Shown: in pieces, positions 15,756-64,000 of the stretch | Layout: the number at the start of each line of letters is the position of its first letter | How positions within the stretch are numbered: position 1 is the stretch's first letter | From: Octopus vulgaris | Lineage: Eukaryota | Reading direction: 5' to 3' | Assembly: GCA_951406725.2 (NCBI GenBank) | Contig: OX597826.1 | Coordinates: 35,464,001 to 35,528,000, forward strand | DNA length: 64,000 nt | Translations under genes and position numbers: made by a program | The notes under the pieces: generated by a model | What the model was told of the DNA's origin: nothing | What the model saw: the letters and a program-made list of their open reading frames with translations, nothing else | Database searches by the model: none

Positions 15756-16113
<358 letters not shown>

Positions 16114-16114
<1 letters not shown>

Positions 16115-16244
16115 GACGAAGGCTGGAGGGTATATCAGCCGAACCACTGTGTTAACAACAAACAAGATGAAGACAAATATCTTTCAAATGTAAATAATGT
16201 AAATAATGTAAATAATGTACATAATTCCTCATCTCTTAAATATA
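16114..16244 (+). mobile_element. Family H1 cassette, 5'-truncated inverted right arm
   Basis: Begins inside the hammerhead core (TGACGAAGGCTG...CAGCCGAA) and runs to the common 3' end CATCTCTTAAATATA. Confidence 0.85.
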
Positions 16245-18664: not shown

Positions 18665-19080
18665 CGAATAATACCTGTGCCTACATGAAATGATGCCTGA
18701 AAACTTATCTAACATTCAAGAGTTATGCATACGCAGAATTGATAGGGAATCCCTAACACAAAGATTACATTTACGCATATGTGAATTATAAAAGAAGGCT
18801 TCTGTTACTGTTAACCAAGATAATTTATACTGTGTATTTTGTGTTTTAAGGTTGTGGATATGCGTAGTTAAAGATGTAGAGCATTTAGTTTTAGTATTAA
18901 TAAACGAATTCATATGTGCGCGATATCTACGCTTAAAATTTACAGTACTCCCAACATATATCATTGCTTGGTGGTTGTGATGTGTTAACTCAACGCATTT
19001 GTATATGACATTTTTGCGAAGGTTAAATCCTTTAAGAAGGCATAAATTGGGTACACGGAAATTACAGAATTTTTTTATTT
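18665..19080 (-). mobile_element. Penelope-like element GIY-YIG endonuclease remnant
   Basis: CNFRVPNLCLLKG..KNVIYKC..IYVGSTVNFKRRYRAH..TSLTTHI..W..KCNLC..IISCRH is the PLE-type GIY-YIG layout; contains stops. Confidence 0.85.
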
Positions 19081-19665
19081 TAGATAGAATGTCGCCCCAA
19101 AGAGTTTAATTCGGGTCGATAAGTCATCGGCAGAGGTAAGTCCAACTTGGAGCCCACATCACAACCGAATTGGATGGCTCTACCGGAACCAGCATTCACC
19201 ACCCGGCGACCTGGGTTTTGAGATTCTGCCTTCGCTCCAGAATCACCCAGCATAGGAGAGCTCCTGATTCACATGTTTAAGCTATCTGCCTTGGAGTTTG
19301 TAATTATGAGAATAATAAATTTTATGGATTTACAATATTTTATATATTTTAATACAATTTTTAAAAAGTAAGTAGGACTAAATACTTTTGTACATACTTA
19401 ATATATTCTTAACATATTTGTATATATTCATATCTATATATTTTAATGTATTTTAATATATTTTGAATATGTTTATATATCTATATATTTTTAGCACATC
19501 ATTTGGTGCATACAATGATTTCACAAAAGAATATATTTTGGTAATTTACCCTTTGTCTCTCTTCATTATTTCTACTATTTTTCTATGGCTCAAATAAACT
19601 GAGCACTTCGAAGTACTCTATATAGAGAGATAATCCTATCTCCAGTATTTATATATATATATATA

Positions 19666-29701: not shown

Positions 29702-29793
29702 AAAAGAATGAAGGAACTCATGGAATGGTTATGCGACACTTTTCAAGTATCAGTGCCACCAGAAATAATTGAACCCAGACACACAGGTGAAAG
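29702..29793 (+). repeat. Inverted duplicate of Gypsy 3' segment (31302-31395)
   Basis: About 92 bp nearly identical to reverse complement of 31302-31395. Confidence 0.9.
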
Positions 29794-30849
29794 TACCTTT
29801 GTATGCTTATAGTTTATACTGTTCACAAAATTCCAACAACAATATGTTATGAATCGAAATTCAAGATAAGAACAGATATTACACTTTAATCTTAGCCAAA
29901 AGACTGAGAATCGAAATTGAAGGTATTTGATGAAGATGAGGATGGAATATTACCTGCTCATATAGTTGTGTTTTCGTTCTTTTGCTGTTATTTCTGCTCA
30001 TTATCACTTTCCCAGTAAATTTACTTGTGATTTTACTTCTGTTATTTATGCAGAGAGTTTGTTAAAATTTTAAGGATCTTTTGTGGGTGGATGGCAGTTT
30101 TGTGTGAGAGAAGTTTAGTCTGGGGTTGTGCGGTGTTTATACAAAATGTGACAGTTAAAAGCCTAGAAAGTATAAACGTTTCTGTCCATAAATGATATTT
30201 TATCAAGTCTTGATAAAAGTTTGATAATGCTTTAATAAATGTATTTCGCTCTCATAAAGCAAAGGCAGAGCAGTTTTGCTGGTTTTTCTTTTCATAGAAT
30301 TTAAACAATTTTTTATTAGAAAAGTGTGAGGGGCGATAAAGATACGAAAAGAAAATGAAAAGAAAAGAAAGAATGAAACAGAAAGAAAGAAAGAAAGAAG
30401 AGTCTATAACTATTATCAATGAATCATTGTTAGTGAATTTCTTGCCAACGGTTTGTTTGTTCAATTTCTAACATTTAAACATTTGCAAAGTTTTTCTCTC
30501 ATTTTATATTTTTATATTTTTCCGATTCAAAAAAAAAAAAGAAAAAGAAGTGCTTTTATTTCACGGAGACTTAAAAAGAGAATTAAAGAATAGGAAAAGT
30601 TGAAATAATGGTATTAATAAAATATTAAATTAAGAGTTATATTAAGAATTATATTACATAACCAACAAGATTGAAAAGATAACAAAAGTTATTGTAATGG
30701 TATTAAGAATTTGAAATATTGTATTAAGAATAATTTTATTTCATAATTTTATTCATGGAATTAACATTCATGTATTCATATATTAGAATAATCATACAAT
30801 ATTAACCATTTTCATAACCTTTCCTTCTTGAAAAGAAAGCAAAAGGTGT

Positions 30850-31282: not shown

Positions 31283-32945
31283 CTACAAACATTTTCTTTT
31301 TCTTTCATCTGTGTGTCTGGGTTCAATTATTTCTGGTGGCACTGATACTTGAAAAGTGTTGTATAACCATTCCATGAGTTCCTTCATTCTCTTTTTTAGT
31401 TGGTTCGTGTGTCTCTTGTATACCTCTGTCTTTCCTTTTCCCAAGTATAGCATTTTTCCTATCCATTTGGTAATCACTCCATCTTCCCAACTTTGTTTTC
31501 CGTTCTTATATACCCTAACAAATACATTTTCATCTATTTTAAAAGTATCTAGTATTATCCATTGCAATTTTTTCTTTTCTCATCGGGTAGTAATTTGTTG
31601 AAGACTGACTTTATTTTCCTCACAAACAACAGCTCGGCTGGTGACATACCTGCTGGTGCGTTTAGATATGTTGTCACACGATATTTTCTTAAGAATTGTT
31701 GTACACCTACCTCATCCATGAATTCCTTATTCATCTTTTTAGGGCTCTCTTTAATGTATCAACAAAGTGCTCTGCTTGTCAATTAGATCTGGGCTGCTAT
31801 GTTATATGTTCTACAGTGAACGTTTTACAAAACTTTTTGAACGCAAAAGACACACACTGTGTTCCATTATCAGACACTATTGCGTCTGGGATGCAAAATC
31901 TCACAAACAGCTCATGTGGAAAGTTTGATGCAGCTGAGGAGATTAGTTTTTTTACACTTACAAATTTCTGGCCATTGAAAGAAACTATCTACTACCACAA
32001 AGTAGTATGAACCGTTTAAGGGACCAGCGAAATCGATGTGTAGCCTTGACCACAGAACATCTACTTTTGGCCAAAGTTCACATTTTTTCATTGATAACTT
32101 TGCTGCTAGAGCACATCCTCTACAGTCTTTCACTAGATTTCTGATTTCCCTATCCACTTTTGGCCAGTCCACATAGTTATGCATCAAAGCTTTCATCCTC
32201 GAAATACCAGGGTGTCCAACATAGAATTCCCTCAAGATTTTCTTTTGCAATGTTTCAGGTATAACTCTGTGTGCATACATCCGTACGCCATCACAAATTG
32301 AGTATAGGTTCACGTCTTGATTTCATTTCACACCAATCCTATTCCTATTTCCTTTTCCTGTCCACTTATTCTTTTCATCTGTTATAAATTTGTCCTTTTC
32401 CGCGTTTTGTTTTATGTCTTCTAGGGTCACCCGTAATTCATGTACCACATTCCACATTACATTTTTTATTTCTCCTTCCGATCTTAAAGCTGCGATTACT
32501 GTATCTTCGAATGTGTCACAGTGTTTCGGTATCAGTCTGGACAAACCATCTCCATGCTTTAATTTTTTGCGGTAAAAATTCTATTTTGTAATCATAATTC
32601 AATAATGTAGTGCCCCATCACTGTAAGCTATTCGCTGTGTGTGTTTTTAGAACCGCATGTTGACAGTAGTGGGCGATGATTCGTTTGTAGACAGAAACTT
32701 CTACCATGAATAAATCTATGGCATTTTTTCACACCGAATATGATTGCTAACGCTTCCTTTTCTCTTTGGTTATAGTTCCTTTCAGCTTGTAATACCGATC
32801 ATGACACATAAGCTATAGCTTTTTACTCCCATCGTCGTATTTGTGCAAACGCATGAATCCTATATCGTAATCACTCGTATCTGTAGCCAATATAATATCC
32901 AACTTCAGCTCAGAATGCCTTAACAATAAATTCGATATCAAAATG
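31283..32945 (-). mobile_element. Degenerate Gypsy/Ty3 LTR retrotransposon pol (RNase H + integrase)
   Basis: ILATDTSDYDIG (RNase H); GHPGISRMKALMHNYVDWPKVDREIRNLVKDCRGC (Zn-binding); WSRLHIDFAGPLNG..VVVDSF (integrase core); VYKRHTNQLK; many stops and frameshifts. Confidence 0.93.
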
Positions 32946-34255: not shown

Positions 34256-34307
34256 ATATAGGTATATATACCTATATATAACATATACACATATTATTGT
34301 GTATATG

Positions 34308-34620
34308 TTTTGTCCTAGCATATGGGCTGCTTCTTTTAGTTTCCATATTTTCCAGTGGTGTTCTCTGTCTATTATTTTAACGTCATCCCACAGGGGGAGG
34401 TGATCTTCATTTTTCCATACATGATCCACTATACCCGATTGATCATGCATGATAAATGGAGACCACCTCTCCCTGTGGAATGAAGTTTTTAAAAAATAAT
34501 AGACAGAGAACACCACTGGAAAATATGAAAACTAAATGAAGCAGAACATATGCTAGGACAAAAAAAGCTCCTAAGCAGGCCAAGTGCAGCATATGGGAAT
34601 CGGTATTAAGAAAAGATAGG
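34308..34620. mobile_element. Inverted pair of Penelope-like endonuclease C-terminal fragments
   Basis: Minus arm encodes SGIVDHVWKNEDHLPLWDDVKIIDREHHWKIWKLKEAAHM (PLE S..A.H...H...W....I...E.....R..KEA motif); arms 34308-34426 and 34441-34563. Confidence 0.8.
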
Positions 34621-34665
34621 AAGATATGAGATTTATAAACCCTAAAATTCACTCTATAATTGCCC

Positions 34666-34933
34666 ACAGGCATATGGTGTAGTGGTTAAGAGCGCGGGCT
34701 ACTAACCCCACGATTCGATTCCAGGAGGTGACCTGAATAATAATAAGAAGAACATCGAAAATACCTTAGGAATGAGAACCCAGGTTCAAAATTTCCCCAA
34801 GACACCTAATGAAGTCTGGAGGGTATATCAGCCAAAAAATTGTGTTAACAACAAACAAAATGAGGACAAATATCCGTCAATTGTAAATAATTTAAATAAT
34901 GTACATAATTCCACATCTCTTAAATATAGAACT
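34666..34933 (+). mobile_element. Family H1 cassette (tRNA-like head + AAT + decayed hammerhead)
   Basis: GGCATATGGTGTAGTGGTTAAGAGCGCGGGCTACTAACCCC..TTCGATTCC, then GACAC-CTAATGA-..-TGTGTT, then the shared 3' end. Confidence 0.85.
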
Positions 34934-47663: not shown

Positions 47664-48012
47664 CATCTTTTAAATTGCATTTTCAAACCTTCTTTCGTAT
47701 ATATATATATATATGAGTGTGTGTGACAAATATTTTTGTAATGTTTTTGCAGCTTTGATAATAAAGTATATATGTATGCATACATATCTATATATACATA
47801 TATATATATATATATACATATACAGAGAGAGAGAGGGGGGAGAAAGAGATAGTTATAGTACAGATATACATGTATGTACGTACATATATGAGTGTGTGTG
47901 TATGTGTATTTATCGACACATGTATACATACATACATTTCATATATATATATATATATATAATTTACATCATTTACAATTGACGAATATTTGTCCTCATC
48001 TTGTTTGTTGTT

Positions 48013-48057
48013 AACACAACGTTTCAGCTGATATACCCTCAGCCTTCATCAGGTGTC
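48013..48057 (-). ncRNA. Minimal type-I hammerhead ribozyme, intact core
   Basis: GACAC-CUGAUGA-A-GGCUG-9nt loop-CAGCU-GAAAC-GU-U-GUGUU; palindromic AACGUU stem III. Confidence 0.8.
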
Positions 48058-48247
48058 TTGGGGAAATTTCGAACCTGGGTTCTAATTCCTAAGGTATTTT
48101 TCGATGTTATTATTATTATTACTATGCAGGTCTACTAACCCCAAGATTCTGAGTTCGATTCCAAGCAGTGACCTAAATAGTAATAATAATAGTAATAACA
48201 TCGAAAAATACCTTAGGAATGAGAACCCAGGTTTGGAATTTCCCCAA

Positions 48248-48293
48248 GACACCTGATGAAGGCTGTAGGGTATTTCAGCCGAAACGTGGTGTT
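48248..48293 (+). ncRNA. Minimal type-I hammerhead, GUG at the cleavage triplet (probably inactive)
   Basis: GACAC-CUGAUGA-A-GGCUG-loop-CAGCC-GAAAC-GU-G-GUGUU. Confidence 0.7.
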
Positions 48294-48347
48294 AACTGTA
48301 AATAATGTAAATAATGTACATAACACCCCATCTCTTAAATATAGAAC

Positions 48348-48407
<60 letters not shown>

Positions 48408-50202: not shown

Positions 50203-52400
50203 ATTATTTCAAAACATTTGCCATAAAGGCAGTACACAGATTAAGTTAGCTTTGCGGGCTGGACGAGGACATTAATAAAGTGAATGATAATGAAAGAAAG
50301 ATGATAAGGATGGGAGAAGACAAAAAGCGCCCGCCGACTTTCGCTTCTCTAAAACATTGTTCTTTTTAAAGATAAACACAAAACGAGGTATTAAACCTCT
50401 TACAATTTTTCCAATTTTTGGACTTAGCAGTCCATTATTAATAAAAATAAACACAAAACGAGGTATTAACCCTCTTACAATTTTTCAATTTTTGGACTTA
50501 GCAGTCCATTACTAATAATAACAGTTCAATAATTACATATCGTCCTCGAAATAGCTTGTGCCTGCGCCCTCCACCATCAACCACGCCTCCCTCAGAACGT
50601 AATCAAGTTCCGAGTTGGCGTCGCCCGGGACCAAGTTATAATCTTCATTGAGCTCCTTTAGCCCAAGCGTCACGTCGAACGCCACGGCCTCCACAGCTAC
50701 CTGCGGAGGCCATTCGGGGTCCTGTGTGAAGCCTAAAGGTGCTCCCTTGTAGTGCTCTTCCATCACTTTTTCAATTTCTCCTCCTCTATAGAAGAGGACC
50801 AATACGTTCAGTTCTTTCGTTGGCGGCACAGTTCCCGCCAACGGTATTACTTCTCTTGTCGGTGGCACAACCCCAACCGACGTAGTTCCGGGACATTCCG
50901 GTGCTACACTGACAGCCGGTAATGTCCCGTTTTTCTTCCTCTTTTTTTTTTTTCCCTTTTCAACTGAGGGAGGGTGCGTCTCCTCCGTGGCTGGAAGATT
51001 CGCCTTCCTCTCCTCATCCCTATTATCCTTTGGTGAGCACCCATTGTTGCTCACCTTCCTCTTTCGGCCTCTGTTTGAGGAGTCCTCTGCTTTCTCGGCC
51101 GTTATCATTCCCTCTTCTAGAGGGGTTTTACTTAACTGTTCCGGGATCCTATTTTGTTCCCGGGGACAATTCTTCTTTATGTGGCCGGACTCCAAGCACC
51201 GATGACACTTAGTGGGGCGACCCTCAAGCATCACCGGGTACCTGCACCCGGCCATTTTCAAAAAATCTGGAAGAACCAGGTTGGCTGATTGGGTCCACAG
51301 GGTCAAAATTGCTTTTGACCCAACCCAAGCAGCCGCAGGAAGAACTTTTACATTAAGGAGCTTAGTTTAGCTGCCACCCAGACCCCGGCGGATAGTCTCC
51401 TCCATCCACTCGGGTTCTATGTCGGGTGGCAGCCCGCAAATCCAAGCTTTCATCAATTTCTTTTTTTTGTACGTGGGCAGGAATAAGATTTCCTTACCCT
51501 CCAGGGGTTTGCTAGCAAATTTGCAAGCCTCTTCAGGGGTGTCAAATAGCAACCACACCGTTGCATATTTGACACCCCTGGAAATGAATTTAATTGTTGG
51601 CAAATACTCTTCCAACTCTTTTTCAATTGCCGTCTTTTCGAATAGGGCGATGGTGTCGAGTGCCTTGGAGTAGATTCTCAACACCACCGTCCTATCTTCA
51701 CGGTCTTTTAACCACTTTTTAGGCGGTATGATCTCCCATTCCAAAAGTTTGTTATTTTTCATTGCCATGTTTTTTTTTGTTTTTTTTTGTTTGTTTTTTT
51801 AAATGTATTCAGAATAAAAGTAAAAAACGAGAAGAAAAGGAAATCCGAAGAAAGTCACAGTGAAAAAAGGAGAGAGTCAAATAAAGTTAAAAGGAAAGTC
51901 AAATAAAGTTAAAAAGAAAGTCAATAACACAGCAAAAACCTTCTGGCCATTTGGTACTCCCGGCCTAAATTGAACCAGGAACGCACAACTTCCACAAAAA
52001 TTGGTGTAAAATTGGTAAAAATTGTTCAAACTTCGGAGGCAAAATACTCCCCTATATAGTAGTTTTCACAATTCATAAAAGTTCTTCACAGCACAATACA
52101 ATTCTCACAATTACGTGAGAAAAATATTCACTCAATTTATCGAAGACGGATACGCCCCCCAAAATTTTCTCAGCGAGAAAAATATATTTGCCACATGTCG
52201 GCAGAATCAGAATTCTGAATCCAGTAGGACTTCCTGCCTGTAAAAAACAATTCTCAACAAAAACTCCCACTGGACCCAGAAAGCAGAATCTTACCTTACA
52301 TGGGGCTTCCAAAGTTTTCAATTCAAGACGACATCAAAAGCACGTCTTCACCGCTTCAGTGCCAAACACAACACTGACTCGCACATGCGCCGAAGCAACT
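50203..52400 (-). mobile_element. ORF1-only non-LTR retroelement (Tx1/L1-like gag), 13-bp TSD
   Basis: TSD GTTAGCAAGCTAC; single ORF1-like frame; no RT or endonuclease; no LTRs or TIRs seen. Confidence 0.85.
50533..51768 (-). pseudogene. ORF1/gag-like protein (RRM-like region + CCHC zinc knuckle), ~411 codons with one in-frame TAA
   Basis: ORFs 51768-51367 and 51306-50533 share a frame, joined by TKLLNVKVLPAAAWVGSKAIL; LPDFLKMAGCRYPVMLEGRPTKCHRCLESGHIKKNC is CX2CX4HX4C in Tx1-type context. Confidence 0.85.
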
Positions 52401-63299: not shown

Positions 63300-64000
63300 C
63301 AAAATACCCACCACCCTAATTGTTGCTATAGAGAGAGACTCACAAAGACATGGACAACTGTTCTCACACTTCCAGCTGAGAACAGAATAATTGTTTCAGA
63401 TAGTATAGACATCTCAAAGGGAATATTCCAGGGAGATAGTCTTTCAGTACTTCTTTTCATTTTGGCACTGAATCCATCCATTATCGTTCCTACTGCAGAA
63501 AATAAATGGTTACATGCTCAGATCTTCAACTGCTAGAAATATCAATGTAACTCATAATTTCTTTGTAGACGACCTCAAGATTTATGCTAAAAGTGTAAAC
63601 AATGCCAAAGTACAACTGAAATTAATAACAACCTTTTCAGCTGATACAAGCATGAAATTTTACCAAAAGAAATGTTCATATTTGGTTATAGAATGAGGAA
63701 AGTCAGTCCCCCAAACCCAAAACCTGTGCATCAACGATCTCTCTATCTCCCCCTTTCCAAACAAAGAATGTGACACGTACCTAGGCATAGACGAAAATGT
63801 ATCATATGAAGGCATTGGGAATAAAGATAGAGTGACCCAAGAATATTACACCAAACTTAGGAAAATATGGCAGTCGGAACTCTCCATGTGCAACAAAACA
63901 ATAACCCACAATGCATTTGCGGTACCAGTGCTGATCCCAACATTTGGGATACTTAATTGATCTGTAGAGGAAAACCACTCCATAGATATCAAAACCCGCA
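63300..64000 (+). mobile_element. Degenerate R4/Dong-like non-LTR reverse transcriptase (runs off window)
   Basis: KGIFQGDSLSVLLFILALNP; THNFFVDDLKIYAK; MKF..KKC; YLGI; EYYTKLRKIWQSELS..NK...HNAFAVPVL..TFGILN; stops and a frameshift. Confidence 0.88.

What the first reader, a model, noticed from the sequence alone, without database searches (positions are those of the whole stretch)
47961..48348. Inverted pair with an intact minimal hammerhead that should work only as a dimer
Seen: minus-strand 48057-48013 reads GACAC CUGAUGA A GGCUG..CAGCU GAAAC GU U GUGUU. Stem I (GACAC/GUGUU), stem II and both conserved core strands are present. Stem III is a loopless palindrome (AACGUU). The plus arm has the same fold but GUG at the cleavage triplet. 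Established: hammerheads with such minimal palindromic stem III cleave as double-hammerhead dimers, and NUG triplets cleave poorly. Inference: the family encodes a dimer-dependent ribozyme.
Basis: partly seen in the sequence, partly recalled or inferred. Interest (0 to 1): 0.72.

Follow-up and report, generated by a model that had tools for sequence, protein, structure and literature searches.

The report
Penelope retrotransposon end with hammerhead ribozyme
This palindrome is two back-to-back, decayed copies of the end repeat of an abundant Penelope-type jumping gene; its hammerhead motif is the kind already described for these elements and is predicted to be buried in a hairpin here, but the repeat also carries a tRNA-like head that likely acts as an RNA polymerase III promoter, and about one copy in ten has a small deletion at the predicted cut site that may record self-cleavage.

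Summary
The motif is real: 2 matches in the window, none in 300 shuffles. It is the minimal type I hammerhead already described in pseudo-LTRs (pLTRs) of Penelope-like elements (PLEs). The 388-bp palindrome is a head-to-head pair of truncated pLTR copies, tailed on one arm only, of a PLE with RT and a GIY-YIG-type end (at least 2,561 exact motif copies). Neither arm is fully intact (G10.1-U11.1 left; GUG triplet right). The pair cannot form a cis dimer: any read-through RNA holds one sense ribozyme, paired to its antisense at a predicted cost of 56-60 kcal/mol. The less ordinary part is the family. A tRNA-like head with A and B boxes sits between the ORF stop and the next start. Of 54 copy segments reaching it, 45 begin at its start, and the 2.6-kb sense strand has no T4 run (P about 0.03). 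This points to Pol III transcription, untested. A 3-nt deletion spans the predicted cut site in 19 of 210 arms, possibly a scar of cleavage in vivo. This scan reported the same family and the Pol III reading earlier on other DNA; the deletion lead came from one of those notes and was retested here.

The parts
47962..48132 (-). Left arm: 5'-truncated pLTR copy (last 6 nt of the tRNA-like head, AAT tract, start codon mutated, hammerhead, short 3' end without tail)
48013..48057 (-). Minimal type I hammerhead, triplet GUU, predicted cut between 48018 and 48017; G10.1-U11.1 instead of the family G-C
48132..48349 (+). Right arm: 5'-truncated pLTR copy beginning inside the tRNA-like head and ending with the tail; 32-nt internal deletion after 48296
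48132..48174 (+). 3' half of the tRNA-like head (A box lost in this copy)
48151..48162 (+). B-box-type motif (identified against a recalled Pol III consensus and by alignment to this genome's tRNA genes)
48175..48199 (+). (AAT)n tract between head and start codon; length varies widely between copies
48219..48221 (+). ATG that opens the element's ORF in tandem copies; this copy reads 28 codons to a stop
48248..48293 (+). Second minimal hammerhead, G10.1-C11.1 kept, triplet mutated to GUG; lies in ORF codons 10-25
48320..48349 (+). PLE 'tail' (about 30 nt), present on this arm only
47941..47961 (.). Left (TA)n flank; no target-site duplication can be told apart
48351..48404 (.). Right (AT)n flank

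Best explanation
The palindrome is a decayed insertion of two head-to-head, 5'-truncated copies of the pseudo-LTR of a protein-coding Penelope-like retrotransposon, likely made in one event in which both nicked target strands primed reverse transcription, and its hammerheads are passengers that are predicted to be inactive at this locus. In the family, the repeat runs: ORF stop, tRNA-like head with A and B boxes, (AAT)n, start codon, minimal hammerhead in codons 10-25, short end, 30-nt tail (shown). The head likely works as an internal RNA polymerase III promoter, so most copied RNAs start at it; this would explain the SINE-like short copies and fits the lack of T4 runs (inferred). The ribozyme would cut only with a second same-strand motif (tandem pLTRs or another RNA) or with the element's protein, removing the start codon from the downstream RNA (inferred). 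The recurrent 3-nt deletion over the cut site would arise when reverse transcriptase jumps the cut using a 2-nt microhomology (inferred, least secure).
For: PLE end: in 28 of 30 loci chosen by the coding 3' end the head follows the stop, and 26 of 30 continue into the hammerhead region (one of the 30 is the query's own locus). L077 shows repeat-ORF-repeat. L061 holds 569 open codons with RT (RVT_1 E 2.7e-6, below the curated cut-off). Homologues: 2,735 at E up to 1e-30, some carrying PF01541 GIY-YIG. The in-script majority unit gives 826 open codons from the pLTR ATG. Insertion signature: 42 of 47 divergent pairs have one tail, 0 both, 5 none, and there are no convergent pairs among 101 loci (P 8e-9). 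In 80 loci chosen only on an intact motif, 40 of 44 pairs have one tail, 2 both, 2 none (P 8.5e-9). Same layout in PMC8557442 and PMC3846280; two internal RT start sites and extension of both strands in PMC11167929. Sequestration: hairpins of -215 and -206 kcal/mol; forcing helices I and II costs 56.5 and 59.8. Pol III: the head aligns to this genome's tRNA genes (best Arg-TCG, Thr-TGT, Cys; z 7.5-8.3). Of 72 head-bearing segments, 18 begin inside the head, 45 at its start, 9 further upstream; truncation rate per nt 0.048 against 0.008 and 0.0035. T4 runs: 0 sense, 31 antisense; codon shuffle P 0.027. Cut site: deletion in 19 of 210 unselected arms against 0-4 at eleven other sites with 2-3-nt microhomology and 7 at a 5-nt one; 333 against 2,561 exact genome matches; 19 of 23 pairs carry it on one arm only; no linked substitution survives 110 tests.
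Against: No transcript start, Pol III occupancy or cleavage was measured. RNA reads of three runs (possibly a related species) cover family sequence about equally with first mates on either strand and show no start or end pile-up at the head or the cut site; the library may be unstranded. The head is not a foldable tRNA: ARAGORN found none in 30 loci and Rfam gave no tRNA hit. A 4-5-bp palindrome overlaps the head start and blurs junctions; 5' ends fall at two modes 7 nt apart. The T4 result is modest: G4 runs are also absent, LINE ORFs of similar T content have only 1-3 runs, and a decayed single copy (L061) has 3. Core positions are no better conserved than flanks among copies (4.5% against 4.2%), as expected for dead copies. 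A deletion-bearing master in a star-like family cannot be excluded: both arms carry the deletion in 4 of 23 pairs against about 1.4 expected (P 0.048), and arms share few derived changes (5% against 1.6% shuffled). In PAc, ribozyme mutants still inserted in vitro and no reads ended at the cut site (PMC11167929).
Confidence: 0.6

Rival explanations
1. Ordinary PLE with a fossil tRNA or SINE piece in its pLTR: transcription is by Pol II from an internal pLTR promoter, and copies stop at the head because RT stalls or switches at the short palindrome there.
For: Drosophila Penelope uses a TATA-less internal promoter like those of LINEs (PMC2377424, abstract). Palindromes at inverted PLE junctions are reported (PMC3846280, passages). 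The cloverleaf is lost. An uncapped Pol III RNA is a poor template for an 826-codon ORF (recalled).
Against: The stronger hammerhead stem II causes no comparable stop: 97 of 127 arms pass through to the AAT side. Five of 22 segments classed as joined to flank start exactly at the tRNA +1 position. A and B boxes are kept while the stems are lost. No T4 run in 2,625 nt.
Confidence: 0.25
2. A separate non-coding SINE or retrozyme (tRNA head plus hammerhead, like schistosome Sm-alpha) that borrows PLE enzymes.
For: Most copies are only about 280 nt or less and begin at or inside the head. A Pol III SINE with a hammerhead is known in Schistosoma (PMC6765202, passages). One 215-nt tandem array exists (L325).
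Against: The head is part of the coding element (28 of 30). All 30 loci chosen by the head carry the ORF end, the downstream pLTR part, or both (these are the best 30 of 1,907 candidates, not a random sample). No diagnostic difference between short and long copies was noticed, though this was not tested by a tree.
Confidence: 0.08
3. One reading: the pair supplies an active dimer-dependent ribozyme.
For: Left-arm core and GUU triplet are present; the loopless helix III needs a partner; dimers of such motifs cleave weakly in vitro (PMC4209133). Same-strand tandem motifs exist elsewhere in the family (L150, L220).
Against: The motifs are on opposite strands. Both arms carry a damaging change. 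Read-through RNA buries the motif. The A box is missing here, so the left arm has no intact head to drive its own transcript. Almost no reads cross the centre and right AAT tract of this copy.
Confidence: 0.04

Closest known systems
[quoted passage not shown]
   Same: Type I topology, 5-bp helix I, extra base between 9 and 10.1, G10.1-C11.1 in the family, palindromic 15.2-16.2 without loop 3, mostly dispersed single copies, opposite-strand pairs 100-700 bp apart.
   Different: Helix II is 5-6 bp rather than 7-8. A tRNA-like head and a deletion at the cut site are not mentioned in the parts read; supplements not seen.
Poseidon of Anolis carolinensis, PAc (Frangieh et al. 2024, PMC11167929; parts 1-2 of 4 read)
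   Same: RT followed by GIY-YIG-type domain, hammerhead overlapping the ORF start with the cut downstream of the start codon, two 3' ends defining a tail, AT-rich targets.
   Different: PAc starts its ORF at stem II; here the open frame starts at an ATG 34 nt before the core, and the core ATG frame stops after 25 codons. No tRNA-like head is described for PAc.
Adineta vaga Pen2a and general PLE insertion layout (PMC3846280 and PMC8557442; passages seen)
   Same: Inverted 5'-truncated pLTR, tail on one end, first codons inside the pLTR, microsatellite targets.
   Different: TATA/Inr-like promoter motifs are proposed there, not A/B boxes.
Schistosoma Sm-alpha SINE-like elements and animal non-LTR retrozymes (PMC6765202 and PMC7229834 passages; bioRxiv 10.64898/2026.07.22.740005, part 1 of 5)
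   Same: Pol III-type promoter plus type I hammerhead in a short repeat (Sm-alpha); derivation from pLTRs is proposed for retrozymes.
   Different: Those are non-coding and often tandem. Here the module is the pLTR of a coding element and copies are mostly dispersed inverted pairs or single arms.
Helenus, Ajax and Cassandra (PMC10886601; listing and two reference passages only)
   Same: Small-RNA-derived sequence inside a terminal repeat.
   Different: Non-autonomous LTR elements, not PLEs.

Membership tests
EN+ Penelope-like element | Single ORF with RT | tested here: met
   569 open codons in L061; RVT_1 E 2.7e-6 but 27.7 bits against cut-off 29.6; DKG and YVDD motifs visible; 826 codons in the majority unit
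EN+ Penelope-like element | C-terminal GIY-YIG endonuclease | tested here: inconclusive
   Pfam found no GIY-YIG in L022 or L061; a VY..YKG motif with C-x-C and two H is read by eye; a few homologues at about 40% identity carry PF01541
EN+ Penelope-like element | pLTRs from partial tandems, direct or inverted | tested here: met
EN+ Penelope-like element | 30-40-nt tail on one end | tested here: met
   42 of 47 and 40 of 44 pairs
EN+ Penelope-like element | Hammerhead motif in the pLTR | tested here: met
Penelope/Poseidon clade | Placement in an RT tree with named references; no Zn-finger linker between RT and EN | tested here: inconclusive
   No CxxC linker seen by eye in L061; no tree built, no named PLE reference was at hand, no PDB match
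PLE minimal hammerhead | Core, extra base after A9, G10.1-C11.1, palindromic helix III, NUH triplet | tested here: met
   Met by the family (1,554 exact matches, control 0). Each window arm fails one item
PLE minimal hammerhead | Compensatory stem changes | tested here: inconclusive
   Copies differ by decay, not covariation. A second PLE family here has a related layout with other stems. Relative P0003 keeps PD.G....PKRCV in its N-terminus, DNA not seen
PLE minimal hammerhead | Self-cleavage | not testable with these tools
   Only the indirect cut-site deletion
tRNA-derived SINE | tRNA-like head with A and B boxes | tested here: met
   box consensus recalled; not scored as tRNA by Rfam or ARAGORN
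tRNA-derived SINE | Non-coding unit independent of an autonomous element | tested here: not met
   Head lies within the coding PLE unit
tRNA-derived SINE | Transcription by Pol III | not testable with these tools
   Indirect only
Non-LTR retrozyme | Tandem non-coding units each with an intact hammerhead | tested here: not met
   Window copy is inverted; the one array seen (L325, 7 units) has no unit with an intact motif

The most novel reading that the evidence does not exclude
A protein-coding Penelope retrotransposon whose whole 2.6-kb unit is transcribed by RNA polymerase III from a captured tRNA promoter in its pLTR, shedding SINE-like copies of its own end, and whose in-frame minimal hammerhead does cut in vivo, as recorded by a 3-nt deletion at the cut site in about a tenth of genomic copies.
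Probability: 0.25. Interest if true: 0.8.

Novelty: new variant of a known kind. Interest (0 to 1): 0.5.

Why it matters
The family matters for two open points. First, the role of PLE hammerheads is unclear (PMC8557442) and in vivo cleavage was not seen for PAc (PMC11167929); a deletion that sits on the cut site in hundreds of copies makes the question testable from genomes and with a simple RT assay. Second, a Pol III promoter on a self-mobilising, protein-coding retroelement would blur the LINE/SINE division of labour and raise the question of how an uncapped RNA is translated. I did not find this arrangement in four full-text searches (listings only for most hits). Repbase, Dfam and most subscription papers, including the 1994 paper on octopus tRNA-derived SINEs (not held), could not be checked.

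Tried and rejected
Rfam on the window and on the locus: no hammerhead family among the listed hits, only hairpin-type miRNA noise (in one search only the best 150 of 392 rows were shown). ARAGORN and Rfam on the head: no tRNA call. RNase P processing as the source of the 5' ends: set aside because the acceptor and T stems do not pair in the majority head, not excluded. ORF start at the core ATG as in PAc: stops after 25 codons. Selection on core bases among copies: none. PDB search: nothing. Sequencing-run search: no RNA holder listed on record; the three raw RNA runs were added by species label. Read laying gave no strand, start or end signal and could not assign reads to this locus; one pile-up at 48163 in one run is unexplained. 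Host gene around the locus: none found in 98 of 213 filtered ORFs scanned, plus 4. A/B-box scan of 11 loci of a second PLE group: no match (the pattern was not run on the study family as a positive control). Deletion copies as a sub-lineage: an apparent linkage fell away once the tandem array L325 was removed. Search of earlier notes by sequence returned nothing. The first majority unit had a scaffold gap and frameshift and was rebuilt.

Full report
Observation. The motif is present at the stated coordinates. On the minus strand, 48057-48013 holds stem I, the CUGAUGA core, one extra A, a 5-bp stem II, GAAA, CG, the triplet GUU and the closing strand of stem I. The plus arm (48248-48293) has the same layout with GUG. 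A descriptor finds these 2 matches in the window and none in 300 shuffles. The left arm is not quite intact: it closes stem II with G-U where 88 of 113 unselected family arms have C, and it lacks one loop base. Rfam listed no hammerhead on the locus.

It is a repeat. The window lies in a 2.8-Gb genome. The left arm drew 2,198 candidates, of which 40 were scored at 92-96% identity apart from itself. A pattern for the intact motif has 1,554 exact matches with 0 for the reversed control; a 31-nt pattern has 2,561. Two more insertions of the family lie in this window.

It is the end of a Penelope-like element. Locus L022 showed a coding region running into the repeat. Among 30 loci chosen by that protein, the stop codon is followed by a tRNA-like head in 28 and by hammerhead-region sequence in 26. 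L077 shows repeat, ORF, repeat. L061 has 569 open codons with an RT match just under the Pfam cut-off and 2,735 homologues, a few with a GIY-YIG annotation; Pfam itself did not call GIY-YIG in this family. A majority unit of 2,625 nt built in a script gives 826 open codons starting at an ATG inside the repeat and crossing the tandem junction. The hammerhead therefore lies in codons 10-25. The window's right arm reads MRTQVWNFPKTPDEGCRVFQPKRGVN in that frame, and a relative 55% identical over the RT region keeps the same peptide pattern at its N-terminus.

The inverted pair is an insertion signature. Among 101 loci there were 49 rows of divergent pairs, 47 after removing two duplicate rows, and no convergent pair; 42 had the 30-nt tail on exactly one arm, none on both, 5 on neither. 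In 80 loci taken from the first 100 listed intact-motif matches (all on contig C1), 44 had an inverted partner: 40 one tail, 2 both, 2 none. The window follows the rule: short end left, tail right, (AT)n on both sides. This layout is described for PLEs (PMC8557442, PMC3846280, passages seen). The anole element extends both target strands and starts RT at two internal sites that define the tail (PMC11167929, parts 1-2 of 4 read). I infer one event with priming on both strands.

The pair is not the dimer. Each read-through RNA holds one sense motif and its antisense, and folds to a single hairpin of -215 or -206 kcal/mol. Forcing helices I and II costs 56.5 and 59.8 kcal/mol. A double hammerhead needs two same-strand motifs, as in full elements or in direct tandems such as L150 and L220, or help from protein as in PAc. 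The motif class, its need for a partner and its low in vitro activity are published (PMC4209133, parts 1-2 of 4 read). GUG is reported not to be a cleavage site (PMC4191386, passages).

The tRNA-like head. Between the stop codon and the AAT tract lies a 75-nt head with A- and B-box motifs 31 nt apart (consensus recalled). It aligns to tRNA genes of this genome (35 distinct sequences from 30 loci; best Arg-TCG, Thr-TGT and Cys, z 7.5-8.3), but its stems are lost and neither ARAGORN nor Rfam calls it. The parent tRNA is not settled. In the 80 loci, 72 segments include the head: 18 begin inside it, 45 within 17 nt before to 12 nt after its start, and 9 further upstream. The truncation rate per base is 6 times that inside the head and 14 times that upstream. 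Starts fall at two modes, the tRNA +1 and 7 nt before it, where a short palindrome blurs inverted junctions; 5 of 22 segments classed as joined to flank start exactly at +1, though that classing missed some inverted joins. The sense strand has no T4 run in 2,625 nt. Codon shuffling gives P 0.027 and a third-position model P 0.0013. A second, T-richer PLE group has 3-15 runs per ORF, and LINE ORFs of similar T content have 1-3. I read this as a likely Pol III promoter (about 0.6 for short RNAs, about 0.35 for the whole coding unit). How such an RNA would be translated is open; one paper reports cap-independent translation after ribozyme cleavage in viral UTRs (PMC13725137, abstract only), but here the cut lies downstream of the start codon.

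A possible record of cleavage. An earlier scan note (e1-9576697) pointed to a 3-nt gap at the cut site, and I tested it. The deletion spans the predicted cut with 2-nt microhomology and occurs in 19 of 210 unselected arms. Eleven other sites with 2-3-nt microhomology have 0-4, and a 5-nt tandem site has 7. Genome-wide the exact counts are 333 against 2,561. In 23 pairs containing it, 19 have it on one arm and 4 on both (about 1.4 expected, P 0.048). After removing one tandem array, no linked substitution survives 110 tests. This fits RT jumping a cut RNA. It also fits a deletion-bearing master that is otherwise like the rest, because the deletion keeps the frame and the family has little sub-lineage structure. 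I give the scar about 0.45. Neither window arm has the deletion.

Expression. Three raw RNA runs added by species label carry family sequence with first mates about equal on both strands and no pile-up at the head or the cut site. This fits passive read-through of many copies or an unstranded library; it neither supports nor tests Pol III transcription, and reads could not be tied to this locus.

Verdict. The family is a PLE with an unusual tRNA-derived head; I did not find that in four searches, but repeat databases, supplements and most subscription papers were not seen. This scan had reached the same family reading before on other DNA (31 notes hold the search words); those are unchecked notes and not independent support. 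My PLE, head, 5'-end and T4 results were obtained before I read them. The taxon (likely an octopus) is a guess shared with those notes and was not tested. New variant of a known kind; interest 0.5.

Noticed in passing
window 15759-16244 and 34306-34933: Two more inverted insertions of the same PLE family; in the first, one arm begins at the start of the tRNA-like head, and the second includes the ORF 3' end.
   Followed up: partly
window 18716-19105 (-): GIY-YIG fragment (PF01541 E 4e-4) of a different PLE group; relatives with up to 806 open codons exist in the genome.
   Followed up: partly
L281 4851 (+), L283 3739 (+), L285, L286, L289: That second PLE group carries another hammerhead-like motif with the extra A, a long helix II and a short palindromic helix III; no A/B-box head was detected there.
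   Followed up: partly
L325 (G000:C2:2734247-2736005): Tandem array of seven units of about 215 nt (AAT, hammerhead, tail), retrozyme-like, five with the cut-site deletion and two with other changes.
   Followed up: partly
L222-L250: Many copies hold pLTR plus only the first 230-400 nt of the ORF body, then jump to another pLTR piece, several at about position 234; suggests short RNAs or a template-switch hotspot.
   Followed up: no
L005 1126-1665: Inverted pair in which both arms are followed by the same 40-50 nt of flank, an inverted duplication of target DNA.
   Followed up: no
window 29744-29915 (-): U2 snRNA match above the Rfam gathering score (49.5 bits against 46), probably a pseudogene.
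   Followed up: no
window 50536-51798 (-): Two adjacent ORFs (277 and 143 aa) with a weak zinc-knuckle match, resembling a LINE ORF1.
   Followed up: no
window 31915-32322 (-) and 63472-63693 (+): Integrase zinc-binding fragment and an RT fragment of other retroelements.
   Followed up: no
L116: Cluster of several tRNA-Cys-like genes within 3 kb, some with altered anticodons.
   Followed up: no
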